From NCBI GenBank assembly GCA_900128565.1, contig LT635930.1, forward strand, positions 1 to 44,021: a stretch of DNA of 44,021 nucleotides. Reading direction: 5' to 3'. This document shows, piece after piece, positions 5,408 to 43,300 of this stretch. A model generated the notes under the pieces. The model had not been told where the DNA came from, searched no databases, and worked only from the letters and a program-made list of their open reading frames with translations. The first letter of the stretch is position 1, and every line of letters starts with the position of its first letter. This DNA comes from Stramenopiles sp. TOSAG23-6. Taxonomy: Eukaryota. A program made the position numbers and the translations under genes.

Positions 5408-5422
5408 AAACCCTAACCCTAA
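5408..5422 (+). promoter_or_regulatory. Telo-box-like AAACCCTAACCCTAA in a divergent promoter region
   Basis: Telomere-type repeat between the divergent Rab and Rieske genes. Regulatory role is inferred. Confidence 0.4.
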
Positions 5423-6622: not shown

Positions 6623-6774
6623 GAAGTACAAAGGTTGAAGGAGATCAATTTTGTTAGATACGAAATTATATACGAAAAAAGAATCTTCCATTGGTGAACA
6701 AAACGAATTAAATTACATAGGACAAACAATAATCAATTAATATTTANTATAATATAATANAATATAATAGTAAA

Positions 6775-8222: not shown

Positions 8223-10276
8223 ATGGATTCTGAGCATATATTCAATGGCATTGCTCAACAAGGGGCTCGAAAAGAGGGTGGAAGAGGCCGTGGAAGAGGT
8301 CATGGAAGTGGTCGTGGAAGAGGTCGTGGAAGAGGTCGCCGTGGAAGAGGTCGCGGTCGCCGTCACCATGCACAAAATGAAGTAAAACGTCACAATAGTG
8401 GTCACAAAAGAATTCGTGAGAGAAGTTACAGTTCATCCAGTCGTCAGGGTAGTCGTGATGCTCCGCGTACTGTAAAAGATCTGGAACAGCAGCTTTTTTC
8501 GCAAAATGTGCCGCAAGCACGCAAAAAGAATAATAAAAAACGGAGGAAAAAAAAGAAAAATTCGTTGAATATTAATGTAAATTCTGCGAATAGTTCACAA
8601 AACAATGGCGTTCGGCGTTCACCTAGAGTAATTGCAAAAACTTTTCAGAACGATACTGAGATGCCGGATTTCACACCAACTATAAGTTCCGGAAAGAAAA
8701 AAGATTTTATGACTTCTTCTACTTTTGCTTCTTTGGACATTGACACGCGTCTAAAAAGAGGTCTGGCTGAAGTAATGAAATATGTCACAATGACACGTGT
8801 CCAAGAACAAACACTTCCAACTGCTCTAAGTGGAGTTGATTTACTTGCACAAGCTAAAACAGGGACGGGGAAGACTTTGGGATTTCTCATCCCTTCGATA
8901 GACAACGTCTTACGCTGTCGACAGCGTTTGAGTGGTGTTTCCATCATTGCAATTTCACCGACCAGAGAATTAGCTAACCAAATATGTACAGAAGCATCAA
9001 AGTTATTATATTTTCATCCTAATTTTAAGACGTGTTCAATGGTGGGTGGAACAAATAAAAAAACTGATATCAAACGTATCAAAAGTGGCATCGATCTTCT
9101 CGTAGCAACTCCTGGCAGGTTGATAGATCACTTGCAGTCAACTCCAGGATTTCGTGAGCAGTGTGCTAGTGTAAAAGTTTTGATTCTCGATGAAGCCGAT
9201 CAAATGCTAGAGATGGGTTTCAGACCTGATCTTACACGAATTATTAGTTATTTACCAAAGGATAGGCAAAGTTTATTATTTTCTGCAACAATGCCTAAAA
9301 GTTTGATGGATGTGTGTAAAATTGCAGTTAAACATGATTATAAATATATCAATACAATACCAAAAGATCAGCAGCAGACTCACAAAAAAGTTCCACAAGC
9401 TGTTGTCGTTGCACCAGTGGATCAAATTACAAATATGGTTATGAAAGAAATCTCTATAGAGATGCAAAGGCATCCAAATAATTTTAAAGTCATGATATTT
9501 TTTGTGACTGCTCGTTTGACCGGATTTATGGCAACTTTATGTCGAAAAGCTCGTATACCTACTATAGAAATGCATTCAAGAAAAAGTCAATCATACCGCA
9601 CAAAAGCAGCCAAACAATTCCGTGATGGAACAAAACTGGTATTGTTTACGTCTGATGTATCCGCGAGAGGTGTTGATTACCCTGATGTGACGCTTGTCAT
9701 GCAAGTTGGTATGACTGAACGAGAGCCTTACATGTATGTTTTATTTTTTTTCAAATTCGATTTTTTTTTCATACGAAATTTTGTACCTAACGAATTTTTT
9801 TTTGAAATATTTTTCTAAAATACATTCATCGTCTTGGTCGAACTGCTCGTGCAGCAAGTGGAGTAGAAGGTCGAGGAAAGCTAGTATTAGCCCCATTTGA
9901 GTCAAAATTTTGTCTTTCATTACTTACTGAGTTACCTATACAATTTGAGACGTATGTGCCTTGCAAAGATACTCATCCAGAAGTTTTTACTCATGTGACT
10001 CGGATGCTGAATGATATAAAAAAAGATCCGGAAATGAGAAAAGCAGCTGCACAAGCGTATCAAGCATGGATTGGATTCTATAATGGTTACTTGCGAAAAT
10101 TACGTTGGAACAAACCTGAACTCGTTCGCATGGGGACGGAATTTGCAAGGTCTATCAATGCATTGGACGTACAAGGAAACCCTCCAGCTCTTCTTCGACG
10201 AACTGTTGGGAAAATGGGACTGAAAGGAATTCGTGGTCTTACGATTGTGAACTCACCAAATGATTTAGTCTACTAA
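8223..10276 (+). CDS. DEAD-box RNA helicase (Mss116/Has1-related); exons 8223-9733 and 9826-10276 (~653 aa)
   Basis: N-terminal GR repeats; Q motif, AKTGTGKT, PTRELA, TPGRL, DEAD, SAT and ARGVD. Motif VI YIHRLGRTAR appears after intron removal. Confidence 0.93.
9734..9825 (+). other. GT-AT intron, family member (92 nt)
   Basis: TACAT|GTATGT...CATACGAAATTTTGTACCTAAC...AAAATACAT|T. No AG in the insertion. Removal gives REPYIHRLGRTAR. Confidence 0.88.
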
Positions 10277-12396: not shown

Positions 12397-14184
12397 TTAT
12401 GTAACTAACATTTTTTTAGCAAATGTGCTCATACAACAACCAAATGCCTGTATAGGTGAAAATGGGTATTTAAAATCTAGAGAATATACATTCCTTCTCA
12501 CTTTCCCAAAACGAAGCTGTTCTGTATCAATCCCAAATTCACTTTCTAGATGACATGTGTTGTAAAAAAATATTTTAAAAATTTGAAATTCGTTAGGTAT
12601 GGTATTTGGTACGAAAAGAATAAATTTGAAATTCATGATAAAAACGTACATGAACTTTCCACCTCAAGTAGAAAATTTTTTTTTGACGCTTTCTTTACAC
12701 GACCATCAAAATTGAGAGTCCACGCATTCAAATCTTTATTCCATTTATTGTAAAAAAATATAAAAAAAAAATCGTTAGGTACAAAAGTTTCTATGAAAAA
12801 AAAAAAAAAAAAAGTCGATATTATTTTGAAAACGTACACGATGGCTGTTTTGTACGAAATTGTAATAATTGAGACTGTTCTTGAACGCCCAAAGATGCAT
12901 ATTCATTTCTAATAACCTCCTTCTCACCTCCGGTAGGTTTCTCCTTTGTAATTCGATTTTTTTGTTCCATATCAAATCGGTCACAAAGACTCATAAAATT
13001 AGCTTTCAATGCATCTTCATCATCATGACGTGGTAGTATCACTTTCATGTATTTTGGAAAAATATTTGAAAAAAAAATTGTTCGGTACAAAATTTCGTAT
13101 GAAAAAATAAATTCGAAATAAAAAAAAAATAAAACATACATCGAGTTTGGCACTCGGGCTAAGATATTAGTCTCAAAACGAATATGGATTAAATCGTGAG
13201 CAGCATATATTTTCAAAAATACTTTACATTTTGATGTTTCTTTGTTAGGTACAAAATTTGGTATGAAAAAGATATTTATTCAATTTTGAAAAAAACGTAC
13301 ATGACTACTTTTCACCTTTAATTGAGGATTTCGTGCTCTATAATCAAAAAGAGAAAACTGCTTTCCAGTCATATTACTTATCATACACCCTAAATATACT
13401 GGACTTGACTCAGATGTTGGTATACTATCTATAGTTGTTAGCCTAAAAGTGTTATTAATTGTACTAAATATACAGAGACCCTTGTGCGTACTATTCATAC
13501 TAGCAGCCATGTNTTCGTGAAAAAATATTTTTTTTTTGTCAAAAAGCTTGTTAGGTACAAAATTGTGTATGAAAAAAAATATATATTCATGATGAAAACA
13601 TACATCATAAATTCGCCCGATTGTTTGTGAAAATGCCAAGCAGTAACAAACGCACCGACGTATCGACGAATATATCCTAAACACCATATATCAGACACGG
13701 AATCAGTTACAGGAGATAAAAATGTTGCCTTTTGTCCGTGCATTAGTTGGTGCAGACGCTGACCTTCTGGAACCTCAGCAAAGTCCGTTGTTGGTTTCTC
13801 TTTAAATATTCCTCGGAGCTTATTTGGATTATCTTTTATTGGTTCGCTTATTAAAGCATTACCCGTAGAGAGATCAAAGAGTTCATCTCCACTAGCAGAA
13901 TACTCTTCGTAGGACTCTTCGTCGTCAGAAACATTATTTGAGCCTTCTTGAGAACTGTTATCCGAGTCTTTCTTAGAATCCTCAACATCTACAGTCACAA
14001 GTTCTGCCTGTATGTTGCTTTCTTTTACAGTGGGCGTACTTAATTTATTCACGTCTGTGCTGATTGGCTCACTTAGAATACCCTTCTCTACATTTGATTC
14101 AGTCTCTAAGGGAGCTGCGTTTAAATTAGTTTCGGCTACATCACCGAAAATATCCCAAACGTCATCGAACTTTTGATCTCCCAT
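12397..14184 (-). CDS. Tubby-like protein; six exons 14184-13604, 13508-13301, 13204-13140, 13046-12838, 12742-12650, 12554-12397 (~437 aa)
   Basis: The spliced product has Tub-domain motifs YLGCMISNMTGKQFSLFD, FETNILARVPNSMKVILP, KQPSWNKDLNAWTLNFDGRVKKASKKNFLL and LRFGKV...YSLDFKYPFSPIQAFG. Exon lengths sum to 1314 nt, in frame. Confidence 0.88.
12555..12649 (-). other. GT-AT intron, family member (95 nt)
   Basis: TCAT|GTACGT...ATACCTAAC...ACAACACAT|GT; restores the frame. Confidence 0.82.
12743..12837 (-). other. GT-AT intron, family member (95 nt)
   Basis: TCGT|GTACGT...GTACCTAAC...ACAATAAAT|GG; rebuilds the Trp of the Tub P-x-W-N motif. Confidence 0.85.
13047..13139 (-). other. GT-AT intron, family member (93 nt, in frame, no stop)
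   Basis: TCGAT|GTATGT...CATACGAAATTTTGTACCGAAC...AAAATACAT|G; gives PNSMKVILP. Confidence 0.85.
13205..13300 (-). other. GT-AT intron, family member (96 nt)
   Basis: CAT|GTACGT...GTACCTAAC...AAAATATAT|GCT. The two AGs after the branch motif are out of frame. Confidence 0.82.
13509..13603 (-). other. GT-AT intron, family member (95 nt)
   Basis: ATGAT|GTATGT...GTACCTAAC...CGAANACAT|G; gives EFMMAAS. Confidence 0.82.
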
Positions 14185-17468: not shown

Positions 17469-19697
17469 ATGCCAAAGCGCTGGAAGCGGCGACTCCGAAC
17501 TCAAATGCGGTTGGCTCACGAAGCCAATGCATTACGTGTTCCGAATTCTTCATTGAATAACTCAAAAGTGGTTGAATCAAAGCAGCCCCAGGAATATTTC
17601 CCACTTGACGAAAAAGGTGCTGCTCGTTTTCTTAATGTAGAAGCGATGTCGAAGTCAGATTCCCCTACTGATCTGACGTATCATAGTGCTGGATTACCCA
17701 TATTATATGGTAGTTTAATTGATCTTCCTATTCCTATTCAGGAAGGAAGTGCTGATCTCAAAATAAAGTTAGTCGCCACTGGGGGAGAAATACAGTATTC
17801 TGTATCTTGGGAGTCTCTCTGCCCAGTAAAGCATTTAGGTGTATCCCCTTCGAAAGTTCAGAAATACATTGAAAGTGAGACATCGCTTAAAAATTCTAAT
17901 GAAAATTCTACAATACCTCCGAGTATTTTTGAAAAAGAAGAGTCACTAGAATTATTGCCCTTAACTAATCTGAAAGGTTCGGACAACATTTCCCTGTTTA
18001 TTCCTAAAGCTGGTGTTGTTACATTACATGTGCAAAATAGTAGTACTACCTGGCCCGTAAAGGATGTACATTTTCAAAATTGAATTTCGAATTTTTTTTT
18101 TTCATAGAAAATTTTGTACCTAACGATTTCTTTTTTTATCTACACTTTTTTTCACAATACATGATGATGTAGTATTACACTACGTTGTCTCTTTAGAACA
18201 CATTTGTCCTTTGGTAACGAAACGAAATATCATGTATTCACTTAAAAAGCAGTGTAACGATTTAAATTCGATATATCGTGATAGTCTTAGAGTTGTTGAA
18301 GAAAGTAGTCAAAATTTAGAAACACTTAGAAAGAAATTATGTATGTTTTATTTTTTTTTTTACAAAAAAATCGAATTTATTTTTTTTGAAAAATTTTGTA
18401 CCTAACAAATTTAAGGTTTTTTTTTTNAAANATTTTTNCNAAANACATAACAATAAACACTCCTGCTCCGGTGCTTGCAGGATCACAGACTGTAGTTATC
18501 CAACGTGATCCAAGTATACCATGGTATGAAAGAATGTACAATGATGCACACAAGGCAGGAAATATTCGTCTAATATCAGGTCGCGAATTATTATTTGGGA
18601 ATCCAGAAAATGATGTGCAAAAAGAACATAAAAGCAATAAGAATATTAATAATACTAATCATGATAATAAAGAAGATGGCGAAGTGGAGAGTAAACGTAT
18701 CATTCATCAGAATCCTGTAGATATTGAGCTCTCTGCGGCAGCAATCCAACGTAATAGAGCTAGAGCTTTGAAGAAAGAGCAAGAAGATAAGGAGCTTGAT
18801 CATTTCGCTGAAGCAAGGTATGAGTACTCTCAGTGGTTGGCAAATGAAGAGGAGAAACTCACTGGAAATCATGTTGAGTCTCCTATTAAAGAAAAACGTT
18901 GGAAGCCTTTTATTGGTATTCAACGATTGAAAGAATATAGAGAAGTAGAAGCGTCAAATTCACCAACAAATCGTAATTTAATTGTTGAATCTAAGGCCTA
19001 TGTCAAATCAAATGGTCCAAAAGATGCATTTGGTGATTTACGAAGAGCACAGCAAATAGAAAGGCGACAACGATTAACCAAAAAGCGCACAGGCAATATT
19101 GTACGAAAGAAGCAAAATGTTAAATCAGGTAAAAGGGTAATTAGAATGAATGAACACCATTGGGAGCATTCAGCAAAGGCTCGTGAACGAAATCTATTCA
19201 GGATGAAAAATCCAAGTACATTGCTCCAGCCCCATGGTTTTAAATCCAAGATCAATGGTAATTCGAACCAACAACAAAATCTTAGTAAACTTGAAAAGTT
19301 TGCAAAAAATAGTAAAAGTAATAAATATCAACATAGTACACTTGACACGCAACAAAATGATACAGTACAGAATATACGATTAACATCTTATGATAGGCCT
19401 ATCCTTAGTGCAGAGGAATTAGCAAAACGTCGGGCTGATATTAGAAAACAGTTTTCGCGTAAATTCTCATGCAAAAGTTCGAATAGGCGAAGAAATAATA
19501 TATCATCAAGGAGATCAAAAACATCTAGATCAAAAAGATCTGCTTCTTCAAAGGGTGAACAAAATAATAGGGAAGATAAAAGTGTGTATACATCCAAATT
19601 TCGACATCTTGACAATGTGAATACACTTTATGCACTTCGTGGAAATTCGATAATGTTTGGGTGCCCCTCCTCAATTGATTCTTCGTTTACTATATAA
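17469..19697 (+). CDS. Hypothetical protein with possible N-terminal GOLD-like domain and coiled coil; exons 17469-18065, 18163-18340, ~18448-19697 (second junction unresolved)
   Basis: Three open segments separated by two family introns. GVVTLHVQNS..W.VKD|DDVVLHYVV resembles a GOLD C-terminus. May be two genes. Confidence 0.55.
18066..18162 (+). other. GT-AT intron, family member (97 nt)
   Basis: GGAT|GTACAT...GTACCTAAC...CACAATACAT|GAT; joins two ORFs in frame. Confidence 0.82.
18341..18448 (+). other. Family element (108 nt); GT-AT removal creates TAA
   Basis: TTAT|GTATGT...GTACCTAAC...AAANACAT|AA. Several Ns; 3' boundary uncertain. Confidence 0.7.
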
Positions 19698-29000: not shown

Positions 29001-32000
29001 TTGCTCTTTTTCGTGTCTTTTTCGTCTGTATCGTCGTCTTCTGTATAATGACTTGTCACCGATGCAATACTACCTTTAATAAATGATACGATTTCGCCCC
29101 ATACGACACTTGGTGAGAATGCTTCAATATCAACACCTTTTGCCACGGCAGACTTTTCCATTTTTGGCCAATATTTGTCAGTAAAAGACGAAAAAGTGAC
29201 TTGCCCACGCCAAACACCACCATTATTATCATCATTTTTTACATCAGCAACTTCATTATCAACAATATCATTATTCATCTTCAATTGATTCACACGATTT
29301 CGACCTAGTCTCATAACGTCGTCTTCTTCCTCACTATCACTAGCATCGGCCCAAGCACCAGCAGCAACAGGTATTTCAGTTAAACATCCAATATCTTCTG
29401 AAAATGTCACTCCTTGCACAAAATCCTCATTTTGACGATGTTGTACAAAAAACGGTTCAATAATATTATCGTCTTCTTCAGCAGTGCCAAGAGAATTATC
29501 TAATATATTGAGAAATTCTGATGTACGTAAAAACATAGGCCATTGTTCTTCACTGATATAACCAGTAAAAGACTTTGGTAACTTGCTCGGTAAAAATTTA
29601 TCACGTGGTAAATCTAAAGTTCCAGTGACAGAAGCACGCATACCTCGGAAATTACGCCACACTTCTTTACGCAGTACGGCATTTCGGGTCATAAAAACCT
29701 GATGCAAATGTTCTTTTTCAAACTTTTTATAATTGATTGGATCGTCTTGTACATTATTGTCGTCATTATTAGCCTCTTCAAGATCTATTCCATTTTCTAT
29801 TTGAAGAGCTCGCTCAGCAGAAGCACGCATTTTTGCACGAGCAACAGGAACGTTAAAGGTACCACCAAATTCAACACCTTCACCCATTATTTTCATTTTT
29901 TCCCAATGCCTTTGAAAACAATTCCACATCTTAAATATACAGCATGTAGTCTTTCCTGTCCCTGAGCGTCCTAATAATAGTAGTGAAGTGGGGGGGTTTG
30001 GTTGATAATAAATAATTTTCCATTCTTTCTCAGTTACACGAAACGGAATTTCTACTTGTATATCACTTTTACTCGTACCTTGATTCAAAATTGCAGTACA
30101 AAACTTTGAATTAAAGTCATAAAACTTCAAAATATTAAAAGCACCAGGTCTGTGTTCACCAGGAGGGTATACCTTCAATGGACTCATAGTAGTTACACCA
30201 GCACTTGAATACGTTTTTGGAAGATGTTGTTCAATGCCAGTACTAGTTCTTTCAATACCACCACCAACACCAGAATCTTCTAATTCTTTGGTAATACGAG
30301 CCTCTCCACCACGTTTCAGGCATAAACGAATATCTTCAATCTTTCTACTTAATTTATCGTGATTTAAAACTACACACCAAATTGTAATCATGTATTTTCG
30401 AAAAATATGACACAAAAAAANTNTTNGGNTACAAANTTNGNTATGAAAAATATATATCAATCTGAAATTGATAATTACAACGTACATATCGACATAAATG
30501 AAAACATCATTTTTTGCATCATTTCGATTTTGCGACAAACCAATATCTTGTTGCCATATGATTCTTGCACCACTGGTTAATTTTGTTTCGTACACTTTAT
30601 ATTTGGAAATAAGACTCTTTGCTTGTTTATAAGAACCCCAAAAACCTTTAGATATCGTAATAATTTCCTCAAATACTTGAATGATTAACCTCATATCTCG
30701 TTTTCGTTTTTTCTTTATCCAACGATACATTTCAGGTGACATTTTTACTTTCCACGGATTCTCTTTTAGTTCTTCATACTTACTTTCTAATTCTTCTTCT
30801 AATGTTTTAACTTTTTTCGGAACGTTTCGAATATTTCGAATGGCGTTGTAGCTTCTGATTGCTGCTTCATCTTCTTCTTCCATCAAATCATCATCATCGT
30901 CTGATTCGCCGGATTCTTCATCATCACTACTGCTTCCATTATCTTCACTATCTCCGTCACTAAGACTATTGCCTTCATCACTATCTTTCTCTGGGAAAAG
31001 AAGAAATAATCCAGGAATTTGATCCAAAAGTTGAGAAATTCTGACACGTATTGCTTTACACTCCGCTTCACGTTGTGCCAACTTTTGTTTTTTCGTAAGA
31101 GTTTTCACTTCTTTCTTAGTGAGAGATGTTTCAATTTTAGTTGTAGAATCTTTGATATCTATCTTTGATCGATCATTCGACTGTTCAGATTTTGCATTTA
31201 CATCATCATCTTCTGATTCGTCATCAAATTCACCATTTTGTCGCTGCTCCCATGCAATCTTTGCATTTTCAAATTCCTTTTCAAATTCTACTATCAACCC
31301 ATATCTCACCTTTTTTTTATTGTTTCTAGGCATATACTCTATTGCCGTTTTACCTTTAGCATTAACCAAAAGAGGATTTATTTTACCTTTATGCTTTTTG
31401 AGAAGATGGATAATAATGGCGCATTTTCGAGAATGTTTTGATTTAGTATGAAGTAATTTGAAAGCTGCATGAAGAGGAGTGTCTTTGTCATCAGATTCTT
31501 CATTATTCCAATTTGGATTTGCTTTCACTTTTAAAAGTTCTGCAACTAATGTGACTGATCGAGTTTCCACAACAGCATTGTATAGAAACAAATTGAATAT
31601 ACCATCAAGAGAATTTAACAATATTGAAGCTTTCGTTGATTTACTTTCGACTAACTGTCCTGAAGATATTTGTTTACGTAAATTCATCATCAGATGTTTC
31701 TGAATTTTTCGATACTTTGGAATAAAACATTCATATATTTGCTTATCTGACAACTTCGAATTTTTCAACAATGTCGAACCCTTCTCTTTCACACCTGATA
31801 AAAACAATTCTACTGGACACAAACCATCACGATTACCTAATAATAAGTCATAATCTTTGTTGCCAAAAAAGAAATCAAGCTTCACTTGATAAAACTGGCT
31901 AAACATAAAATTTGTGATATCCGCTTCTTCAACGTCTTCGGGCAATGAATTTTTAAAAAATTCTCTGCGAATTGATACATCTCTATTATCGGCATCAGAT

Positions 32001-35000
32001 TCATAATGTGTCAAATCGCGAATTGCTACATGTAAAATGGAACCAGTGCGATCTTTAGGATCATTCCAATAAACGTCGGCTCCAGCTTTAATTAGAGCGT
32101 CGTATATATCTACATCTAAAACCGGAAACAAATTTAACTTAAAAAATTTGAACAATAATCGATTTAACCAATTTTGTAACTCTTTTTTCTTTTCCAAACG
32201 CCAATCTCTCTTTTTATTCGCTTTATTCGGTTTTGGATTTTGAGATTTTTCTTTAGGAGTTATTTTTGATTTTTTAACATTTTCGTCATCACTATCACTA
32301 TCACTGTCACTGTCACTGCTGCTCGAATCAGCAATTCGATCTAAAGTTGGCATTTCGGAACTATCAGAATTACAATCAAAATCAGAATCGCTATTCACTG
32401 CGACTAAATCAGGTATTGAATCTGAATCACTATCACTTTCTTTATCAATTGTTTTACTTTTCTTTGCCTTTTTTGAAGAAGGTTTTTCAACATTTCTTTC
32501 TTCATCTTCATCTTCATCTTCGGGTATTTCAGGATCAATGTAATCAAAAGGATAAAACTTCATAAAAACATGGACAAATTCAAGAACATCAAACGCTTTC
32601 GACAATATTTCCTCTACTACCAAGCCTTTAAAACGACCAGTAGAAAAACGAACTGATTTTGGAGAACCTTGAGATTCAGAATAACATTGAAAAAATTTTA
32701 AAATTTCTGAAAAAGTATCATCTAAGATACATTGAAAATTTGCCCTGCCATCATTATTTTCAATTCCGAACTGCCAAACAAATTTATCTATAGTAGAAAT
32801 ATATTGATCTTCACCAAGAAGGAGTATACAAGCGTAATTAAAGAAGAACGTTTTCGCGCCTACTAAATATGTTTCCAACCAATACTGAAAAACGACAGTC
32901 GACAATTCCGATGATTGAAATATTCCTCTAACAAAATCACCTATTTTCGGAAACTCGGGAGCGATTGCAGTAGTATATATTTTTAAATCTTCTTCTTGTT
33001 TTTTGCCATCTTTAGGCCACATTGAACACGAGTCGTTGTATGCTCTTTTAATTTCGAAATCAGATTCCAGAGACTGATGGTCAAGGGAGAAATGATTAAA
33101 AGGCTGTAAAGATCTCTCTCGTATCTCAAAAAGGTGTTGATATACTGCATGAGATTCTTGGTTTATTGTTTTGTTTTCATGACTCGAAGCTGATTCATAA
33201 ACAAAACAGATGACATTAGTAATACTTGAAATTGATTTAGCAACATATTCACCTTTTACTTTATGTGCACGATTGATAAGTACATCTACGGACGGAAACT
33301 TTGGAAACGATTCATTTAAGATAGCGTTACTGATTATTCCTTTCAACTCTTCACCTGTTGCTAAAAATTGAGCCCAAACCCAATTTTTATCGATAACATT
33401 TGAAAATGCCATGTTGTCAACTGCGACTAAATATGTTTCGTACAATGTAGTATCTTTCACGATGTCTAAAGCGGTTGGTTTTTCTTTTGGTTGTACTTTA
33501 GGTTGTGACTTTTTCGTTTTCTTTTTCTTCGTATTACTTTTTAAATGAGCAAATTCGTCATCATCTGAACTTTCAGATGCACTTGCTATAGGGATAAGAC
33601 ATGGTATACTATCATCACTATCACTATCACTATCCGAATGTATAGGTTGTAGCTTTGGCATATCATCACTATCACTATCACTATCACTATCTGAATTCAT
33701 AGGTTGTAACTTTGGCATATCATCACTATCACTATCTGAATGTAAATGTTGTAGCTTTGGCATATCATCACTATCATTACCAGTGTCTTGTTTAATTTCA
33801 TCTTGTATTTGCATATCGTCAAAATCATCAGGTAATTTATGAAATGTCATTCGTGCTAACATTTCATTCAAAAGTGTATAATGCTTAGTGTAATGGTCAT
33901 GAATTTGCTTCTCTTCTATTTTTTTAACTTTTTCACTTTTATCAAACCAGGAATTGATTACAGATTTATTGTTTTCTATTTCGACAGTGAGTAAGATACA
34001 ATCCAGTGATCGATTACAATCTTCTGCCGACCATTTCATTCTCAATAAATCAGAAGCATTCAGTTCTGTTGTCCAAAGAATACGCCTAGGGTTGCAGCAC
34101 TCGCAAGAATTCTCAAAGTAATCCAAAATAACATCCTTATAAATTTCTACATGACCATCTGACGAGACTTCGCTTGAACAGATTCCAAACATTCTCATCG
34201 AAACGGTCGAATTTACTAATGTCTTACGATCATAATCATGTATTGTGAAAAATAATTGTAGAATTATTTTTGTTAGGTACGGAATTTCATAAGAAAAAAT
34301 ATTAGATAAAACATTCAATTGTAAAAACATACATGGCTTTCCAATGATATAGAGATTTTACGATTTAGGTCTCCACCGAAAAAAGAAGAAATTTCAAAAT
34401 ACTCATCATCCTCAGGTTCGTCTTCATTTGAGTATGAATAGCTAATTTTCAAACTCCAAGTTGAACAATCTGAAGCAATTATGTTACTAAAGGTTAATTT
34501 GAACTCGTAATCTAAAACATCTCCATCTTCTTCAACTGTCTTTGAGTCTGCTAATTTTTTTATACTAAAATATTGTTTTAGAATTATTCGTTCACTAAAG
34601 ACATCCTTAGGTGATGCATATCGTCGAAAGTCCTTTTCTTTTAATCTTTCTAGAGCATTGCCTAGCGAAAGTTTTAATTCTGGATAAAAACAAGAGGTAT
34701 TATCGTGTACACTATCTTTTAGTTTTGGTACAATCATATCGTTGAAAAGTTGCAATACATCAATATCACCTTGATCGGCAGCTTCTACTAAAATGTTCCA
34801 AAATAATCCACCCAACGTACTAAAATCTGTTTTTTTACAATTCTTTCTAAAATATTCTATAACACGTTTTATACCATATTTGCTACCCGCTGGATGCGGA
34901 CCTAATTTTAAATACGGTACAAAAGAAGTAGTTTGTAACGAATACTCAAGACAATGCATTAGCCATTTTACATCTATACAATCCCAAAATGCTTTTGCAA

Positions 35001-38000
35001 ATGCAATATCACAGCGAGAATAAGTTTCAAAATACAGAGTCTTTACAATATTTGATTTCAGAACATGATCTTCACTAATTTTGATTTTTTTCGTCTTCGT
35101 CTTTGGTGACACCGGAATTGTAGATGGATTGCAATATGAATCAGGTAACACTACTTTTGACTCATTTCGCCAACGAATCCATTCACGTTTAAATCTTTCT
35201 AACTTTTGTACAGCTAATAATTGATCTGGAGAATAATAGCCATATTCGACATATTCCGTGGCAAAACGCCTCATTAATTGATGCATATTGGGGGCATAAT
35301 CTAATGTAATTGTCATTAAATCTGAACGAACGCGTTCAAAATTTTTGATAATTTTGTAAATTTGAAATTTATCTCGTACTTTGGTAATGGGAGAAATGTC
35401 TTTTATCTTAAAAGGACCATTACCATTCTTATAAGGACCAGAAGTATTACCACGAAATATAGGATGATAAGTTGTCACAGTTCCAGGATATTCATTTGAT
35501 CTATTTGATACTAAGGCATCTATAAGATTACGGGTCTTCTGTGACTTGATGAGACGCCACTCGACTTCTTTATCTACTATATTTCGACATTCCGCTTCAG
35601 CGACAACGCGCATTTTCCAGTGAGATGTACTTGTTTTTATATCGTTTTTATTTATACGAGTTCGCATCACAGCATCAATCATAAATTCAGGCATATTTTT
35701 GGGCGCAATTTCTGTCGTCACTATGCAGAGTTGCCATACAATATCGCCATTATTTTTTACAATTGGTCGAATCACAGGACAATCATAATGTGTAATCAAA
35801 TCTTCATCTCCCACAAGAGTAGTCGTATCCTCACCAATATAAGTAGGTAGTCTCAGATCAGTCAGTTTAATGTTTGATCTTATATAGGCACCACTAACAG
35901 AAACATTATCATCATACCAATTAACTACAAACGAATCACTTTGATTTTCGAAATCAAGTTTATCCGAGGTTTTTCTACGAGCAGATAACCACAAAAAATT
36001 CTCACAATCAGGATTGTATCCCTGTCCATGCAATAATAAAAGAGTACCCATATGTTTTGGCGTTTCCACTACAAATTTCGACATAATCGACAGAACACTT
36101 TCAAATCGATTCAAGCACAATGTTTCACTACAACCATATTTTTTACCACATTCATAGACACACCCTTCGATATTCGTTTTTTTCCCAATATTTTTCACAG
36201 TAGAAACAAGACCAGAAATACTTTTCATCGCCGTAGAAAAAATACCAGAATCTTTCTTTGAGTTTTTATTAATCAACACACATGTCTTTTCATGATTTTT
36301 CACATTTTCATACAGACCAAAATAGCCACATTTTGCAGTACAACAAAAACGTTTGGAAAATTTTGCCTCTGATATAACGATTGTTTTACTAGGGTTCGGA
36401 CCACCAACTTTTTTATTCTTTTTTATTTCACCACTTTTGAGTAATTCAACTTTATATTTGTTCTTCTCGGTGTTAAATGAAAGAATTTTACCAGCAGTTC
36501 CATGTATGATGAAAAGATATTTCAAAAAAAAAACTAAAATTTGTTAGGTACAAAATTTCATACAAAAAAACATGTAGACAAAAAATTGAAATGAAAACGT
36601 ACATTGTACTTTAACGCTTTTGGATTTTTCAAACCATTAATCAAAATTATATCACCAACGTAAATTGTTTCATCGACTGGTTCACATTTAATTTTTTCTA
36701 TTTCAGCAACTTTTATATTCGATGATTTATTCGATGATCCATTTAGAGACGTTTCAATAGTATCTGGAGAAGTTGAACGAGAGCTCGATTTAGGGTTAGG
36801 GTTAGTGTTTTGTTCTTTTGAATCTTTTGAATCTTTTGATGTATTGATTTGTGATGAAGATTTGGCGTCATCTTTATTTTTCTTCTTTTTCTTCTTTTTC
36901 TTCTTCTTCGACTTTTTCGCAACATTTGTAGACGTCTGCGCATTAGTCTTAGGGTTCGAACGAGAATTTGCTTTTTCAACTTTCTCCGATGTAGACTTAC
37001 TCTCATTTCTTGCTTGTTTTAGGCGAGCTATTTTCGCAGCATGTTCTTCAATAATTGCAGCTTCCTTCAATTGTTGCTCTCGTACAACTCTTTCCTCATC
37101 TGCAGCGATTTTAGCGACTCTTTTTTGCTCTTCCAAGATTTGTTTTTCTTTCTGAATTCTTCGTAATTCTTTTTCTTTTGCAATTTCAGCAGCCTTGAGA
37201 CGTTTTTCTTCGGCAAGCTTCTCCTGTTCAATACGTCTTTGTTCCTCATTCTTTTCCCTTAAACGCTTTTCTTCAGCAAGTTTCTCCTGGTCTCTTTTTC
37301 GTTGCAACTCTTTATTTTCCTTCATACGCTTCTTTGCAGCAAACTTTTCCTCTGCCTTACGACGCGCTAATTCTTTCTGTTTTCTCTTATCTCACTTAGC
37401 TATTTTGGTTTTGAACGTAAAGTGGAAGCTAGCATTGTATTGTTCTTGTGTTGTTTGATTTTACACGTTTCTCTTCAGCAAGCTTAGTCGCAATTTCCCT
37501 TTCACGCTTAAGTAAGGCTTCCACTTTTCGTCGTTCTTCATCAAGTTTCTCTTCCTGTACATTGCGATTGGCGATATTAGAGTGTGACATAGTCTCAAGC
37601 TGAGATGGCTGAGGTTCGAGCATGCCTAGTGCCTGTGTGAGCGTCAACACACCCTGCTGCACCAAATCGCGCAGGTCATTGGTCAAGGCACTCATCCCTT
37701 TCGAAGCAACTGTGCGATAAAACTGCTGGTCTACTTCTGGTTGAATAGCACTATCTGAACGTTCGAATGGGTCATTAATCACGGTCTCCGTTCCACTGGA
37801 AGCGACTCTGCTGTACGACTGCTGGTTCAAGGAAACCCTTGGCTGGTTTACTTCAGGTTGAATAGTACTATCTGAACGTTCGCGCGTGTCATCAGTCAAG
37901 GCACCTATTCCATTGGAAGGAACAGCGCGATGAAACCGTTGCTTTACTTGTCGAACGACAATGTCTGGACGTGGATTTCTGCATACTCTGCAAATTATAC

Positions 38001-38058
38001 ACTTATCAGCCCCGTCTGAAACATTTTTGATATAGCATACACGACAAGTCCAAGTCAT
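23033..38058 (-). CDS. Giant TRANK1-like UvrD/SF1 helicase with ankyrin and TPR-like repeats; exons 38058-37465, 37388-36603, 36501-34333, 34237-30486, 30389-23033 (~4,885 aa)
   Basis: GRSGTGKT, YVDEVQD, GDTAQSI, NYRSHSGI, EAKGLEFDDV and LYVAITRAR. Ankyrin-like TPLHAA and GSILHVA, IQ-like AARTIQQYWR, N-terminal RanBP2-like WTCRVC...CIIC. Four ORFs join in frame (14,658 nt). Inclusion of the first exon is least certain. Confidence 0.82.
30390..30485 (-). other. GT-AT intron, family member (96 nt, in frame)
   Basis: GATAT|GTACGT...CGAAAATACAT|G. Core partly masked by Ns. Read through in the ORF track as YVVIINF...RKYM. Confidence 0.8.
33597..33776 (-). repeat. Coding tandem repeat (SD)nDMPKLQ x3-4
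   Basis: Near-identical units containing CTTTGGCATATCATCACTATCA and ATCACT hexamer runs. Confidence 0.85.
34238..34332 (-). other. GT-AT intron, family member (95 nt)
   Basis: CCAT|GTATGT...GTACCTAAC...CACAATACAT|GAT; joins the 736-aa and 3765-aa ORFs. Confidence 0.85.
36502..36602 (-). other. GT-AT intron, family member (101 nt)
   Basis: CAAT|GTACGT...GTACCTAAC...CATCATACAT|GGA; gives GLKNPKALKYN|GTAGKILSF. Confidence 0.85.
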
Positions 38059-38214
38059 GACTAAACTTTGACCATGTGGCGACGCAAAAGTTAGTAGTTT
38101 TAGTCAACTGCTACAATATAAATTCCCACTTTACGTGTAAAATCAAACAACACAAGAACAATACAATGCTAGCTTCCACTTTACGTTCAAAACCAAAATA
38201 GCTAAGTGAGATAA
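37387..38214. repeat. Perfect 82-bp inverted repeat: 37387-37468 and 38133-38214
   Basis: Checked block by block; 82/82 identical in reverse complement. Confidence 0.95.
37389..37464 (-). other. Probable non-family intron (GT...AT, 76 nt; or GT...AG to 37386, 79 nt)
   Basis: CGT|GTAAAA...GTGAGAT|AAG. Contains stops in both flanking frames; both candidate ends are in frame. Confidence 0.5.
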
Positions 38215-38425: not shown

Positions 38426-40268
38426 ATGGCTTCGTCACCAGTGACCAGCGATATGAAGCTGAGGCCATCTCATGCAGAAAAAGCTTTGACATTTTATGAA
38501 GCTGTGGCCAAAGTTGTTGCTTTACGTCTTGAGGATAAAAATGCTGAAGAAAAAGAAGAAACTTGTTCTTTAGGTGTTTTCATCCCTGATCTGGCAAATT
38601 GTATTTTTACAGGTCACACAAATACAGACATGGATTCCATAGCGTCAGCAATTGCAGCTGCACATCTATATCCTGGGGGTATTGCTGCCCGAAGTAGTGA
38701 CATCAACTCTGAAACTGAGTTTTGTCTGAAACGTTGGGTAAGTCAAAACATACTAACACTCTCTTGTTTACTTCACTAATTGTTTTTTTTTTCTGTTGTA
38801 CACCATATTATTAAAACCAACTCATTTAAACTCTGCAAACATTTACATTACAGGATATACCAATGCCTATTCCGTTTATTGAAGCTTTGGATGCTCAAAG
38901 GAAGCAGAATGCAATTATCAACATGGAAAATTCACCTGAACATACAAGCCGTGTCTGCTTAGTTGACCACAACCAAATTACGCAAAGTCCTGCTCAATTA
39001 GAAGAGAGTTTTGTTGTAGGAATAATAGATCATCATGCTATGCAAAAAAAAACTATATGTACAGATAAACCTGTGTTTGTTGATATTCGCCCTTGGGGCT
39101 CCGCATGTAGTATGTATGTTTAATTTTTTTTTAATTTCAATTTTTTTTTCGTACGAAATTTTGTACCTAACAAAAATTAATTTTTTTTTTGAAATATTTC
39201 TCCAAAATAAATTATTACAAGTCAGTATTTAAATCAGAGTAAGCAAATCCCAAAAAAGTATACTATATTTATTTCAAGCAATACCGCAATATATAGGCCC
39301 TACTACAATTTTACACCCTTTTATACTAACCTATTTTTCATTGAACACACATTTGACATATATTACAAATAATAAAATTGCAGGTATGCTATTATCTGGA
39401 ATTCTCTCGGATACATTAAACCTTCAGTCTCCAACAACAACAAATCATGATCGTCTTGCAGTTGCAACTTTAGCTTCTATTGCTGGTGTTGATGACATCA
39501 ATACACTTGCAATTGAGCAGTTTCGTGCGAAAAGTACGAGTTTAGCTTCGCTCTCTGCATATCAAATTGTATGCGGTGATCGAAAGATATTTGATTGTGG
39601 TGGTGAAATTATGGCATTTGGAACTTGTGAATTTTACGGTGGTATGAATTCTCTTTTAGGACGCATTTCAGAATTTATGTATTTTTTATTTTTTTTCAAA
39701 TTTGATTTTTTTTTCGTACGAAATTTTGTACCTAACAATTTTTTTTTTTAATATTTTTCCAAAATACATACATGAACTGCGAGCATTGACAAAGGAAGAA
39801 AAACTGCGGTATAATTTCTTGACACTAGTTGATATAGAAAATATGCATTCCATTTTAGTTATGCCAACTATGGCCGAAGTTTTACTTGCCAGATGTGCCT
39901 TCAAAACAACTAATAAAGATAATAAAAACATAGAACCTTTACACTATAGTGGAGTTTTCGAATCCTTACAAGAGATCAAGAAAATCGAAAATGAAGTTCA
40001 AAATGCAGGTGTCCTTGATCTAGGAAATCGTGTTTCAAGAAAACATGATTTTATTCCACCATTAGCTGCGGCTATTAATGATGGTTTCGTACTACCCGAT
40101 GATGTTAAAAAGAGTATTAGTGATGAAGAAGAAACTGCTGAATATGGACCTGTTGTTTTAGCTTGTGGCGAACATGTATGTGGTCTTCAAAGAATAAGTA
40201 TGAAAGGACTAGGCCTTGGAGTATTGGCGTGTATTCGACTATCAGAATGTGTAGGTCATTGTCATTAA
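38426..40268 (+). CDS. Family II (DHH/DHHA2) Mn-dependent inorganic pyrophosphatase, PpaC-like; exons 38426-38737, 38854-39113, 39213-39257, 39376-39678, 39770-40268 (~472 aa)
   Basis: GHTNTDMDS, LVDHN, IIDHH, RPWGSACSII, IAGMLLSGILSDTL...SPTTT and VSRK..FIPPL. Confidence 0.88.
38738..38853 (+). other. Canonical GT-AG intron (116 nt)
   Basis: TGG|GTAAGT...TTACAG|GAT, in frame. Confidence 0.88.
39114..39212 (+). other. GT-AT intron, family member (99 nt)
   Basis: AGTAT|GTATGT...GTACGAAATTTTGTACCTAAC...AAAATAAAT|T; gives GSACSIITSQY. Confidence 0.87.
39258..39375 (+). other. Non-family non-canonical intron, probably GT-AA (118 nt); GT-AT alternative ending 39363
   Basis: AAAA|GTATAC...TACTAAC...AATAATAA|A ATT GCA gives QIPKKIAG. 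The nearby CAG (39381-39383) is out of frame. Confidence 0.65.
39679..39769 (+). other. GT-AT intron, family member (91 nt)
   Basis: TTTAT|GTATTT...GTACGAAATTTTGTACCTAAC...AAAATACAT|A. No AG inside. Gives SEFIHELRAL. Confidence 0.87.
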
Positions 40269-40301: not shown

Positions 40302-43300
40302 TTATTGCGTTTTAACAAGCATTTGTAAGACATTCTCTTCATGAACGCCATGAAAATGTAAGGATTGGCGGTCTTCCATTTGTCGTCCACCAAAAATTAA
40401 AAGTACGCGATTTGCCTCAACACCTTCAAGCCGTGCAATCTTTTCCTTTACTTGTTGGACTAAGTCACTCGTCAAACATAATACAGAAATGAAAGTACCA
40501 TCTATTCGTTTGATTTGTAAGCGAATTTGTCCCAGTATATCAGATTGAGAAAGTGACATATTTCCCATACTACTATTTATAGAAAATTGAGACTCTCCAA
40601 TACCTAACATTTGATTATTGATATTTTCGTTTACTGATAACTTTTGTATTCCAGGTAACAGTATTCGTCTATGTACAGGTCTAATTTTCATTTCTTCCAT
40701 ATCTTCAGTGGTAATTAAAGAACAAGCAGAAAGTGTATCAAAACCTTCATGCTCAAAAGCTTTCGTGACATAACAAACAATGCGATCATGAAGGCCAAGG
40801 CTTGAAATCCAACGTACGACACGATTCTCTCTATCCAAATTTGCAATATCAAGACTTAATGTAGTGTTATCTTTTGTACTATTACTAGGAGATGCGTTTA
40901 ACTGTGGGGGTGGGGGTACATCATATATTTCACAAGAATCTCCTTTTTCATATAGTGAAACGGCACCAACATAAGACTCACCTCTAGGCAAATCTGCCCA
41001 GGCAACACCTTGATCTACACCATTCAAATAAAAGCGAAGTGTTCCCATTGTTGCATCTAATTCAACATCGACCACACTTTCAGATTCTACGAAACGATCA
41101 CCATACAAATCTGAAGCTGGTCCTCCATGACCTTTCTTACCATTTGATTGATAATATCCCCAACCTTTATCAGTCTTATTAACATAACTATCAATCTCAA
41201 CATCACGTAGACATACACCAACAGTTGCTTTTGTCCCTTTTTTAAGTATGAAACTCCATTGAGCTTTGCCAGCATTTACAACAGGTCCAATTAAGACAAT
41301 TCCATTGTCCCAACTAGTTGCTGATTTTTTAATTTTAATTTGATTGTCTTTTCCTCGTTCTACTTTAGTAGAAGCTCCCCTATCAACTACCGTTGGAGCC
41401 CACACCTTTGTATGCGCCGTTGTTGCTCGTACTATTAGCTCTTTTTCCCTCGCTGCAGCTTCTAAACCTTGGTTCAAATCGCATTCCTTATCTAATTGAC
41501 GTTTTGTAGCTGCTGGTGACTTCAGACCTTCAAGAATACCAGGAAAAGGACGACCACTAGCGACTGTAACACATTTCAGAATACTCACGCCATCACCATG
41601 GCCATACAGAGAAAATGCACCAGTAAATCCATTGTTTTTACCCACGGGAAGTTTCAAATCTGACCACGCTACACCTTGATCTACACCATTCAAATAAAAG
41701 CGAAGTGTTCCCATTGTTGCATCTAATTCAACGTCTATAATACTACCAGCTTCCTTAAATTTTTGACCATATGGTGTACTTGCTGGACCAGCATGTCCTT
41801 TCTTACCATTTGATTGATAATATCCCCATCCTTTATTAGTTTTATTCACATAACTTTTCATATCAACATCACGAAGACACACACCAACAGTAGCTTTCGT
41901 GCCGGAGTCTACTCGAAAACTCCAACGAGCCTTGCCAGTAACTACTACAGGCCCCACAAGTACAAGACCATTTTGCCATCCACTCCCGACTTTTATAACT
42001 GAATGCAAAGCCGGGGAAAACTCGGTTGCAAAAGGTGCCATGCCACTTCGAACGGAAGAAGACATTGCAAGTACAGGACTTTTGCCAAATAATCCAGAAG
42101 TATCTGGGATAACTAAACCATCTGCATGAGATGAAAGACCATGAGCAGCTAATACAGTCACAGCGTCGCCTGCATCAAATAGCGAGACAGCCCCAACAAA
42201 TTGTGCACCTTTAGGCAAATCTGTCCACGCTACACCTTGATCTACACCATTCAAATAAAAGCGAAGTGTTCCCATTGTTGCATCTAATTCAACATCTACA
42301 ACACTTCTACATTCCCGATAACGTTCGCCATACGGTGTGCTTGCCGGGCCTCCGTGGCCTTTCTTACCATTTGATTGATAATATCCCCAACCTTTTTCAG
42401 TCTGATTTACATAACTATCCATATCAACATCACGGAGACATACACCAACAGTTGCCTTCGTTCCCTTCTCAAGACGAAAACTCCACATTGCTTTCCCAGA
42501 AGATACTGGAGCGCCGACAAGTATCATTCCGTTTTCCCAACTACGCGTTGATTTGGAAAGAACGTTTCCAGAAACTTTCGTCGCAGCACCTTTAGCAAAT
42601 ACCAATGAAGCAGCAGCAGATGAGGCTTTTTTATGCTTCTGAACGCTAGAACTTCGACGACGAGCTTTGTTATTGATAACATCTTCGTGCTTTTCATCGT
42701 GAATATTTTGGTGAGGTGATATCAAAGGAGCTACATCTTTTTTTTTTACATCTATAATAGTTACCATATCACCAACATCAAATAATGAAACAGCTCCGAC
42801 AAATTGTGCACCTCTAGGTAAATCTTTCCAAGCTATACCTTGATCTATACCATTCAAATAAAAGCGAAGTGTTCCCATTGTTGCATCTAATTCAACATCT
42901 ATCACACTACCAGGTTCCTTGAATTTTTGACCATATGGTGTACTTGCCGGACCACCATGTCCTTTCTTACCGTTAGATTGATAATATCCCCAGCCTTTAT
43001 TAGTTTTATTAACATAACTATCCATATCAACATCACGAAGACATACACCAACAGTAGCTTTTGTCCCCTTATCAATACGAACTCTCCATTTGGCTTTCCC
43101 CGAAGATACAACTGGTCCAAAAATTACTAAACCATTTTCCCAGCTTCTAGATATTTTTATGAATCCGCTTGCAGGTAAGGCTTCAATTGCTGAACCATGT
43201 GATATAACTAACGCCGCCTCATTTAGATTTTTCATTACGGGTAAAGCAATTGGAACAATTGGAGGGCCATTAGCGTCCCCTATTACAATGTGTTTAGGAG

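What the first reader, a model, noticed from the sequence alone, without database searches (positions are those of the whole stretch)
38738..39769. Possible rule N|GT...AN: the last intron base copies the last base of the upstream exon
Seen in the pyrophosphatase gene: G|GT...AG (38738-38853), T|GT...AT (39114-39212, 39679-39769) and probably A|GT...AA (39258-39375). The AA reading gives the compact IP-x-x-IAG spacing expected for PpaC, and the adjacent CAG is out of frame. Every intron in the window fits this pattern, including non-family ones. Inference: either the acceptor is selected by identity with the exon -1 base, or the real cuts are one base upstream (NGT...A), or the pattern is a legacy of target-site duplication. 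Only one G case and one A case support the generalisation.
Basis: partly seen in the sequence, partly recalled or inferred. Interest (0 to 1): 0.85.

Follow-up and report, generated by a model that had tools for sequence, protein, structure and literature searches.

The report
Mobile introns spliced GT...AT, not GT...AG

Summary
Transcript contigs from two studies skip exactly 39114-39212 or a 1-2 base shift of it. Canonical GT..AG alternatives score 15-36 bits lower, or do not exist for intron 4.

The two GT..AT introns belong to a ~95-nt family with 14 copies in 44 kb, all in the sense of their gene and with 9-nt terminal inverted repeats. Of 13 full copies, 12 join long reading frames when cut as AT|GT...AT|. 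In a DEAD-box gene the junction rebuilds helicase motif VI.

The general rule N|GT..AN is not established. The 13 T cases are one family trait, G|GT..AG is the ordinary consensus, and only one A case remains. The repeat is two bases long (AT..AT, AA..AA). That fits an insertion footprint (target-site duplication), as in known introners and Fritillaria introns.

This is a new variant of a known kind: introners with a non-AG 3' splice site in a stramenopile. Two existing gene models of a near-identical relative mis-read these introns (P0121, P0171).

The parts
38426..40268 (+). Family II (PpaC-like, DHH + DHHA2) pyrophosphatase gene. Exons are 38426-38737, 38854-39113, 39213-39257, 39376-39678 and 39770-40268.
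   Evidence: PDB matches to Mn-dependent pyrophosphatases. Homologues carry PF01368 + PF02833. The spliced translation is open. Profile score is 468 bits.
38738..38853 (+). Intron 1, unique sequence, canonical G|GT..AG, 116 nt.
   Evidence: In the tied top score among 1021 in-frame candidates. An RNA-run contig of X2 covers it unspliced (record 13).
39114..39212 (+). Intron 2, family copy, AT|GT..AT|, 99 nt.
   Evidence: RNA contig joint 39111->39211 in X4 and X5. Top of 438 candidates; the best GT..AG (39114-39221) is 15 bits lower.
39258..39375 (+). Intron 3, unique sequence, AA|GT..AA|, 118 nt. The same mRNA results from AG..TA or AA..AT cuts.
   Evidence: Top of 1915 candidates; canonical 39239-39383 is 36 bits lower. 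The 20-residue spacing is kept. No RNA joint was seen. X4 contig 21 runs unspliced to 39314.
39679..39769 (+). Intron 4, family copy, AT|GT..AT|, 91 nt.
   Evidence: In-frame join of 148 and 165 codons. Scores 468.0 against a top of 469.0. There are 0 GT..AG candidates among 1116.
9734..9825 (+). Family copy in a DEAD-box helicase gene, AT|GT..AT|. The junction codon AT|T gives the I of YIHRLGRTARA.
   Evidence: Scores 659.0 against a top of 663.1 among 1608 entries (1607 junctions plus one gene model); the best GT..AG is 617.6.
12555..13603 (-). Five family copies in one Tubby-like gene: 13509-13603, 13205-13300, 13047-13139, 12743-12837 (the only GT|GT copy) and 12555-12649.
   Evidence: All five give in-frame joins. 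The spliced protein is open to a stop. Exons match the Pfam Tub profile in order.
18066..18162 (+). Family copy, AT|GT..AT|, in a gene of unknown family.
   Evidence: In-frame join of 202 and 80 codons.
18341..18448 (+). Family copy with 5 N. It is out of frame with the usual ends and in frame from the second GT (18345).
   Evidence: The 18345 reading was found after the fact.
30390..30485 (-). Family copy in the giant gene, AT|GT..AT|. It is 96 nt and has 7 N.
   Evidence: In-frame join of 1290 and 2451 codons.
34238..34332 (-). Family copy in the giant gene, AT|GT..AT|.
   Evidence: In-frame join of 737 and 3734 codons.
36502..36602 (-). Family copy in the giant gene, AT|GT..AT|. An internal AG 32 nt before the end would have to be skipped.
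6648..6704 (-). Degenerate family copy after the stop of the Asp/Asn hydroxylase gene. The element ends ..TCTCTGTAG.
   Evidence: nhmmer E = 5e-05; sequence read. Splicing cannot be judged.
37387..37468 (-). 82-nt insert that breaks the giant reading frame and must be spliced. It is not of the family, and its boundaries are unresolved.
   Evidence: 100% identical inverted copy at 38133-38214. Several in-frame GT.. readings exist, canonical ones included.

Best explanation
The window comes from a marine protist. Its closest named proteins carry the EukProt label GSMAST32, which I read as a MAST-3 stramenopile. Most introns in the window are copies of one miniature mobile element, an 'introner' of about 91-101 nt.

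The element brings its own 5' splice site (GTAYGT) and branch site (TACCTAAC), and it has 9-nt terminal inverted repeats (ATGTAT..ATACAT). It sits at an AT dinucleotide that ends up on both sides: either a 2-bp target-site duplication, or an insertion into A^T.

Splicing removes the element plus one AT. The cut falls after the second AT, so the 3' splice site is AT, not AG, and the original reading frame is restored exactly.

'The last intron base copies the last exon base' is therefore an insertion footprint. G|GT..AG is the ordinary consensus.

The unique A|GT..AA intron shows that this spliceosome also accepts a non-AG end outside the family.

Shown: the junctions, the family, the inverted repeats and the retained AT. 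Inferred: mobility, the duplication, and a spliceosome with relaxed reading of the last intron base.
For: - Family: 14 hits at E < 1e-4 among 27 rows listed at E <= 10. All 14 are in the sense of their gene.
- 12 of 13 full copies join long reading frames as GT..AT. Chance of 12 or more of 13 at 1/3 each is about 2e-5 by my arithmetic.
- Exon -2/-1 is AT in 12 of 13, and the last two intron bases are AT in 13 of 13.
- Terminal inverted repeats of 9-13 nt, 89-92% complementary, in 3 of the 4 copies examined. The fourth listing (39108-39216) showed only its 5 longest of 15 pairs, none terminal.
- RNA contigs of two studies skip 99 nt at 39114-39212, give or take a 2-base shift.
- In run X2 the three family introns of the laid stretch draw depths of 703-4494, against 18 or less in 26 of the other 27 bins. 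The exception, 927.5 at 33305-33713, lies on a simple repeat. 940 records were laid and 405 fit two places. So the family is abundant beyond this window.
- Homology: PpaC junction scans, spacing in 29 of 29 homologues, DEAD-box motif VI rebuilt, Tubby exons in profile order.
- The first AG downstream is out of frame in 6 of 13 copies, and 4 of 13 have an AG between the branch site and the end that would have to be skipped.
- A target duplication supplying the 3' splice site is described for Micromonas, Chrysochromulina and Fritillaria (PMC11282704 and PMC9860276, passages read).
Against: - The AT is constant and is its own reverse complement. A duplication therefore cannot be told from an extended inverted repeat, or from an AT target without duplication. 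No empty site was seen.
- Intron 3 has no inverted repeats and no relative in the window. Its AA..AA may be chance inside a run of eight A.
- Only one junction has RNA support. The same X4 contig leaves intron 3 unspliced.
- One family copy (18341) is out of frame with the usual ends.
- No transposase and no presence/absence polymorphism was seen, so mobility is inferred from copy number and repeats alone.
- How the spliceosome picks this AT among many nearby A-N pairs is unexplained. The branch-to-end distance varies from 32 to 43 nt, and no consensus RNA fold was found.
Confidence: 0.6

Rival explanations
1. A true splicing rule: the spliceosome of this organism chooses an acceptor A-N whose N equals the last base of the upstream exon.
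For: All 14 resolved introns in the window fit: 12 family T..T, one G..G and one A..A. Copy 12743-12837 keeps T..T although its exon -2 is G.
Against: There are only three independent cases. The T at exon -1 is also fixed by the coding sequence. The rule does not pick the site..AAAAT| 4 nt upstream also fits it, but is out of frame in each of the 6 copies where one search listed that end. The intron near 37389-37466 has canonical readings with C or T before GT. From my own knowledge of solved spliceosome structures, no contact is known between exon -1 and the last intron base.
Confidence: 0.08
2. The chemical cuts are shifted by one or two bases. The introns are then TG..CA (the whole element, inserted into A^T with no duplication) or AT..AC (like the rare AT-AC introns handled by the major spliceosome).
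For: The mRNA is identical for all three registers; the joint has 2 bases of slack. TG..CA would be exactly the inverted-repeat element. AT..AC fits the 10 of 13 copies that end ACAT.
Against: GTAYGT directly after the AT is a textbook major-type donor, conserved as GTA in 13 of 13 (one search shows 12 of them aligned). AT..AC fails in 3 of 13 copies (ends AAAT twice, ATAT once) and for copy 12743, where exon -2 is G. Intron 3 would become AG..TA or AA..AT.
Confidence: 0.12
3. The family is removed by a minor (U12-type) or otherwise specialised spliceosome, which is known to tolerate non-AG ends.
For: [quoted passage not shown] The branch box ACCTAAC resembles TCCTTAAC.
Against: The donor is GTATGT/GTACGT in 11 of 13, and 0 of 13 have the C at +5 and +6 of [GA]TATCCTT. 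The branch site lies 32-43 nt from the end, further than the 10-20 nt I recall as usual for U12 introns. The CTAAC core fits the major-type branch consensus. The window holds no snRNA gene to check.
Confidence: 0.08
4. Artefact: assembly errors or dead genes. The 'introns' are not spliced, or the terminal bases are mis-called.
For: The window has 18 N, some inside family copies. Two RNA contigs carry an extra A in the A9 run at 39044-39052, which would break the frame. Intron 3 was seen unspliced.
Against: An exact 99-nt skip is seen in two studies. There are 12 independent in-frame joins. Conserved motifs are rebuilt at the junctions in two genes, and a third gene's exons match its family profile in order. 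A gene model 98% identical in protein has the intron at the same place, with a slightly different intron sequence (P0171).
Confidence: 0.02

Closest known systems
Introners (MITE-like, intron-generating DNA transposons) of Micromonas pusilla, Aureococcus, Chrysochromulina and others
   Same: A short, non-autonomous, high-copy element with terminal inverted repeats. It lies in the sense of its genes, carries one splice site, and uses the duplicated target for the other, so that the mRNA length is unchanged (PMC11282704 and PMC9860276, passages read).
   Different: Those families are described with GY..AG ends and duplications of 3-9 bp. Here the repeat is 2 bp and the 3' end is AT. No empty site or transposase was seen here.
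Non-canonical MITE-derived introns of the tunicate Fritillaria borealis (AG-AC, AG-AT)
   Same: The end of the intron repeats the end of the upstream exon: an exonic TAC is duplicated and forms the 3' splice site. The introns are cut out by an adapted major spliceosome (PMC11282704 passages; PMC13326754 abstract).
   Different: There the 5' end is also non-canonical (AG), and the 3' ends are handled by duplicated, divergent U2AF subunits. Here the 5' site and branch site are textbook, and only the last base departs. The organism is a protist, not an animal.
Non-canonical introner elements of Amoebophrya (parasitic dinoflagellate)
   Same: Repeated introns with inverted repeats and 3-5 nt direct repeats over the exon/intron borders, so that the exact cut is ambiguous (PMC7789003, passages read).
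   Different: Amoebophrya shows no fixed terminal dinucleotides, hairpins of 8-20 nt, and no detectable U1. Here the ends are uniform (GT..AT), and no consensus fold was found.
U12-type introns with non-AG ends (for example GT-AT in Physarum)
   Same: The terminal pair GT-AT occurs, and the last base is read loosely.
   Different: The donor and the branch-site spacing do not match the U12 type.

Membership tests
Introner (intron-generating MITE-like transposon) | Many similar copies that form introns in unrelated genes | tested here: met
   14 copies at E < 1e-4. 13 of them interrupt five genes: DEAD-box, Tubby-like, an unknown gene, the giant gene and PpaC. The 14th lies after a stop codon.
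Introner (intron-generating MITE-like transposon) | Removed from the mRNA so that the reading frame is restored | tested here: met
   12 of 13 give in-frame joins. RNA joint for 39114-39212. Conserved motifs are rebuilt.
Introner (intron-generating MITE-like transposon) | Terminal inverted repeats | tested here: met
   Terminal arms of 9-13 nt, 89-92% complementary, in 3 of the 4 copies examined. ATGTAT..ATACAT is visible in the alignment.
Introner (intron-generating MITE-like transposon) | Target-site duplication that differs from site to site | tested here: inconclusive
   The flank is AT..AT in 12 of 13 copies. It is constant and palindromic, so it cannot be told from the inverted repeat or from a target preference. 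Longer matches (3, 3 and 5 nt in three copies) are as expected by chance (my reading).
Introner (intron-generating MITE-like transposon) | Recent mobility (empty sites, polymorphism, a partner transposase) | not testable with these tools
   No genome is held. No further copies were found in metagenome contigs or viral contigs.
Canonical U2-type intron | GY..AG terminal dinucleotides | tested here: not met
   13 of 13 family copies end in AT and intron 3 ends in AA. Only intron 1 is GT..AG.
Canonical U2-type intron | GTRNGT-like donor and CTRAY branch site | tested here: met
   GTA at +1 to +3 in 13 of 13. CTAAC in 11 of the 12 aligned copies, with one CCGAAC.
U12-type intron | [GA]TATCCTT donor | tested here: not met
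   0 of 13 have CC at +5 and +6.
U12-type intron | TCCTTRAC branch site close to the 3' end | tested here: not met
   ACCTAAC lies 32-43 nt from the end.
Structure-defined non-conventional introns (euglenid or Amoebophrya type) | A stable stem that brings the intron ends together | tested here: not met
   RNAalifold on 12 copies gave 0 predicted pairs. Only a 6-9 bp A/U-rich terminal pairing is possible.
Family II inorganic pyrophosphatase (host gene) | DHH and DHHA2 domains with DHH-type motifs | tested here: met
   PDB matches at E down to 1e-10. Homologues carry PF01368 + PF02833. VDHN and IIDHH are present in exon 2.

The most novel reading that the evidence does not exclude
In this protist lineage the last base of an intron is not fixed as G. 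It is set by, or must match, the last base of the upstream exon. That would be a base-identity check between the 5' exon and the 3' splice site which no described spliceosome has. It would let any element that duplicates its target become an exactly excised intron on arrival.
Probability: 0.07. Interest if true: 0.92.

Novelty: new variant of a known kind. Interest (0 to 1): 0.62.

Why it matters
If this holds genome-wide, most introns of this widespread, uncultured marine grazer lineage are young mobile elements spliced at a non-AG end. That would be a further independent case, after a tunicate and a parasitic dinoflagellate, of a spliceosome that loosened its rules while transposons flooded the genes. 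Here only one base of the signal has changed, which makes the case unusually clean to study.

It also has a practical side. Gene finders that allow only GT..AG mis-build these genes. Model P0121 of a near-identical relative (100% identical over exon 4) reads intron 3 as protein and skips exon 3. Model P0171 (98% identical) loses helicase motif VI. Gene counts, completeness scores and surveys for introners based on such annotation would undercount this lineage.

Tried and rejected
- Own genome: none is held, so no genome-wide table of exon -1 against the last intron base could be made.
- More copies elsewhere: an exact 19-mer in metagenome contigs gave 2 loci, both chance matches in unrelated sequence. 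A 17-mer in viral contigs gave 6 loci. None matched the family profile; there was one weak partial hit in L001, a metagenome locus.
- RNA: only small-share metatranscriptome contigs were available. No contig bridges introns 1, 3 or 4, and parts without cover say nothing.
- Dropped rows, table 5. Three joints in X2 between or within family copies (39187->39135, 39208->39705, 39747->39138; sides 26-36) were read as cross-matches of the repeat. Two joints at 32311/32437->33611/33665 (side 21) lie in a simple repeat.
- Short transcript-derived proteins of exon 4 (55-175 aa): none found.
- Consensus RNA fold of the family: none.
- Rfam on the window: no match.
- A search for further GTA.G[TA]...TACTAAC/CCTAAC/ACTAAC intron-like stretches outside the known ones found none.
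- Intron 3 and intron 1 have no relatives in the window.
- My first canonical alternative for intron 3 was mis-indexed (39239-39382) and was corrected to 39239-39383.
- Earlier notes of this scan held nothing on this genome or on look-alikes.
- Literature searches found no paper on introners or non-AG introns in MAST lineages. 'introner' + 'MAST' gave 0 papers. 'GT-AT' with introns, non-canonical and transposon gave 2 unrelated papers. 'Incisomonas' + intron gave 11 papers, 10 listed, none relevant by title. The MAST-3 search is.
- Supplementary tables, for example the introner family lists that include TARA genomes, could not be seen and may list this family under canonical mis-annotation.
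Full report
**What the window is**

It is eukaryotic: 33-42% G+C in 2-kb windows, compact genes and few introns. No whole genome is held for it. PolyA seawater metatranscriptomes hold small parts of it. The closest named proteins carry the EukProt label GSMAST32. They are 96% identical for the DNA primase large subunit and 100% identical over PpaC exon 4. I read that label as a MAST-3 marine stramenopile. This reading is my inference, and I do not infer which assembly the window is from.

**The observation**

- TGG|GTAAGT..TTACAG|G at 38738-38853
- GTAT|GTATGT..AATAAAT|T at 39114-39212
- AAAA|GTATAC..AATAA|A at 39258-39375
- TTAT|GTATTT..ATACAT|A at 39679-39769

**Are these the real junctions?**

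Three lines of evidence agree.

RNA. Contigs of runs X4 and X5, from two studies, have sides of 104 and 34 nt and no other differences except one extra A. They join 39111 to 39211, skipping 99 nt, and the joint may lie up to 2 places further on. This is the mRNA predicted for 39114-39212. It is not the mRNA for the AG 9 nt downstream at 39221.

Homologues. Full-length relatives include transcript-derived ones such as P0127. P0127 reads GSCCSIITSHYLSQKVKIPRKIAGMLLSGILSDTLNLQSPTTTNHDR and IDEFQYEMRAFKKEKCLSFMFLSLVDIENL. 29 of 29 homologues in which my pattern finds both motifs have 20 residues between PxG and [ILVM]AG, as the model has. 19 of the 48 lacked one motif, many of them being C-terminal fragments. 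The same spacing holds against the solved S. gordonii enzyme 1k20.

Exhaustive scoring. I built a profile from 32 homologues of at least 400 aa, out of the 48 retrieved, with P0121 left out. I then scored every in-frame, stop-free junction in a window around each intron.

|---|---|---|---|
| 2 | 438 | GT..AT 39114-39212, top at 468.0 bits (tied with its two shifted equivalents) | 452.9, rank 57 |
| 3 | 1915 | GT..AA 39258-39375, top at 468.0 | 39239-39383, 432.3, rank about 1661 |
| 4 | 1116 | GT..AT, 468.0 against a top of 469.0 | none exists |
| 1 | 1021 | GT..AG, in the tied top score (468.0) | itself |

For intron 3, the next GT-starting option (ending at 39372) scores 462.6 and the end at 39363 scores 460.3.

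One caveat applies to intron 3. It has no RNA support, and the X4 contig that splices intron 2 runs on unspliced to 39314.

**The family**

The two GT..AT introns share a core that occurs 7 times in the window at up to 3 mismatches, against 0 expected. A profile search finds 14 copies at E < 1e-4, all on the coding strand of the gene they lie in or follow. The other 13 rows of that search have E of 0.43 or more.

With the donor at the GT of GTAYGT and the end after A[ACT]AT, 12 of 13 full copies join two long reading frames. At 1/3 chance each, that is about 2e-5. Further features:
- Exon -1 is T in 13 of 13, exon -2 is A in 12 of 13, and exon +1 is G in 9 of 13.
- The ends form inverted repeats, for example ATGTATGTT/AAAATACAT. 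Terminal arms of 9-13 nt, 89-92% complementary, were found in 3 of the 4 copies examined.
- Removing GT..AT leaves one AT in the mRNA. Removing the whole ATGT..ACAT would shift the frame.
- The first AG downstream is out of frame in 6 of 13 copies. In 4 of 13 an AG lies between the branch site and the end and would have to be skipped.

In the DEAD-box gene the junction codon AT|T gives EPY-I-HRLGRTARA, which is motif VI with the spacing of relative P0170. In the junction scan GT..AT scores 659.0 against a top of 663.1, and the best GT..AG scores 617.6, rank 1061 of 1608. That profile used 31 relatives that I picked from the 150 listed.

Five copies interrupt one Tubby-like gene. Its exons match the Pfam Tub profile in order, and its spliced frame is open to a stop. 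At 12743-12837 the junction T|GG gives the W of PSWN. I recall this W as conserved in Tubby proteins; that is recalled, not tested.

In run X2 the three family introns of the laid stretch draw depths of 703 to 4494, against 18 or less in 26 of the other 27 bins. The exception is 927.5 at 33305-33713, on a simple repeat. 405 of the 940 laid records fit two places. The family is therefore abundant beyond this window.

**Exceptions and open cases**

- Copy 18341-18448 has 5 N and is out of frame with the usual ends. It is in frame from the second GT at 18345, again AT|GT..AT, but I found that after the fact.
- The giant - strand gene is broken near 37389-37466 by an 82-nt insert. A 100% identical inverted copy lies at 38133-38214. 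The in-frame readings include T|GT..AT and also canonical C|GT..AG and T|GT..AG.
- The degenerate copy at 6648-6704 lies after a stop codon.
- A search for further intron-like stretches found none.

**What the pattern means**

The 13 T..T cases are one trait of one family. G|GT..AG is the usual consensus. That leaves a single A..A case, so the general rule has three independent data points.

The identity covers two bases (AT..AT and AA..AA). This is what a 2-bp target duplication, or an insertion into A^T, would leave. The same logic is described in two places:
- For introners that take their 3' site from the duplicated target (PMC9860276 and PMC11282704, passages read).
- For Fritillaria, where an exonic TAC is repeated as the intron's end (PMC11282704, passages read).

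Because AT is constant and palindromic, a duplication cannot be proven here. Cuts shifted by 1 or 2 bases (TG..CA or AT..AC) give the same mRNA.

A U12-type reading fails on the donor (0 of 13 with CC at +5 and +6) and on branch distance (32-43 nt). GT-AT ends are, however, known in U12-type introns of Physarum (bioRxiv 10.1101/2020.10.12.336362, passages read). No consensus fold supports a structure-guided cut.

How this AT is chosen among nearby A-N pairs remains unexplained.

**Novelty**

Non-canonical transposon-derived introns are known from Fritillaria, Amoebophrya and some dinoflagellates (PMC11282704 and PMC7789003 passages; PMC13326754 abstract). I found nothing on MAST lineages or on GT..AT introners. 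The paper on MAST single-cell genomes mentions introns only in its methods (PMC5778133, passages read). Supplements could not be seen.

Two existing gene models of a near-identical relative are mis-built. P0121 reads 26 codons of intron 3 and part of intron 4 as protein and skips exon 3. P0171 reads into the intron and loses motif VI.

**Verdict**

The rule is unproven and is most likely an insertion footprint. The underlying finding is a dominant introner family with a non-AG 3' splice site, plus a unique GT..AA intron. That is a new variant of a known kind.

Noticed in passing
window 37387-37468 (-) and 38133-38214 (+): An 82-nt stretch occurs twice at 100% identity in opposite orientation, 665 nt apart. 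One copy interrupts the giant reading frame and is flanked there by a GAGAA direct repeat. The other lies between the giant gene's start and the PpaC start. It could be a second small mobile element, a templated repair insert that became an intron, or an amplification or assembly chimera.
   Followed up: partly
window 39044-39052: The run of nine A inside PpaC exon 2 has one extra A in the RNA contigs of X4 and X5, but not in that of X1. The extra A would break the reading frame. It may be slippage in transcription, reverse transcription or assembly, or a population variant.
   Followed up: no
proteins P0121 and P0171 (gene models of a near-identical relative): Both models appear forced into GT..AG introns. 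They translate intron sequence, for example ..MYFLFFFKFDFFF.. and ..MYVLFFFKFDFFFIRNF... Their intron text differs slightly from the window's, so the introns sit at the same positions in a close relative.
   Followed up: partly
window 23033-38058 (-): One giant gene of more than 4,900 codons, with three family introns plus the 82-nt insert. It starts with MTWTCRVCYIKN, which looks like a RanBP2-type zinc finger; that is recalled, not tested. The pieces scanned against Pfam gave no match.
   Followed up: no
window 40302-44021 (-): A gene with five or more tandem repeats of about 200 aa. Two DNA repeats are 99% identical over 300 nt. The gene ends in a ubiquitin-like tail and runs off the window.
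   Followed up: no
window 9729-9733 and 9821-9825: At the DEAD-box copy the direct repeat is 5 nt long (TACAT..TACAT). As a result seven cut registers give the same mRNA. The other copies share 1-3 nt, so this looks like chance.
   Followed up: yes
window 6747, 6760, 11469-11514, 13513, 18427-18444, 30421-30441: There are 18 single N. Several lie inside family copies and others in a repetitive coding stretch. They look like ambiguous consensus calls, not gaps.
   Followed up: partly
window about 5405-5420 (-): Two telomere-like units (TTAGGGTTAGGG) lie just upstream of a small Rab-like GTPase gene.
   Followed up: no
window 38738-38853: In the one canonical intron, the only TACTAAC box lies 97 nt from the acceptor. 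This is much further than in the family (32-43 nt), so a different branch site may be used.
   Followed up: no
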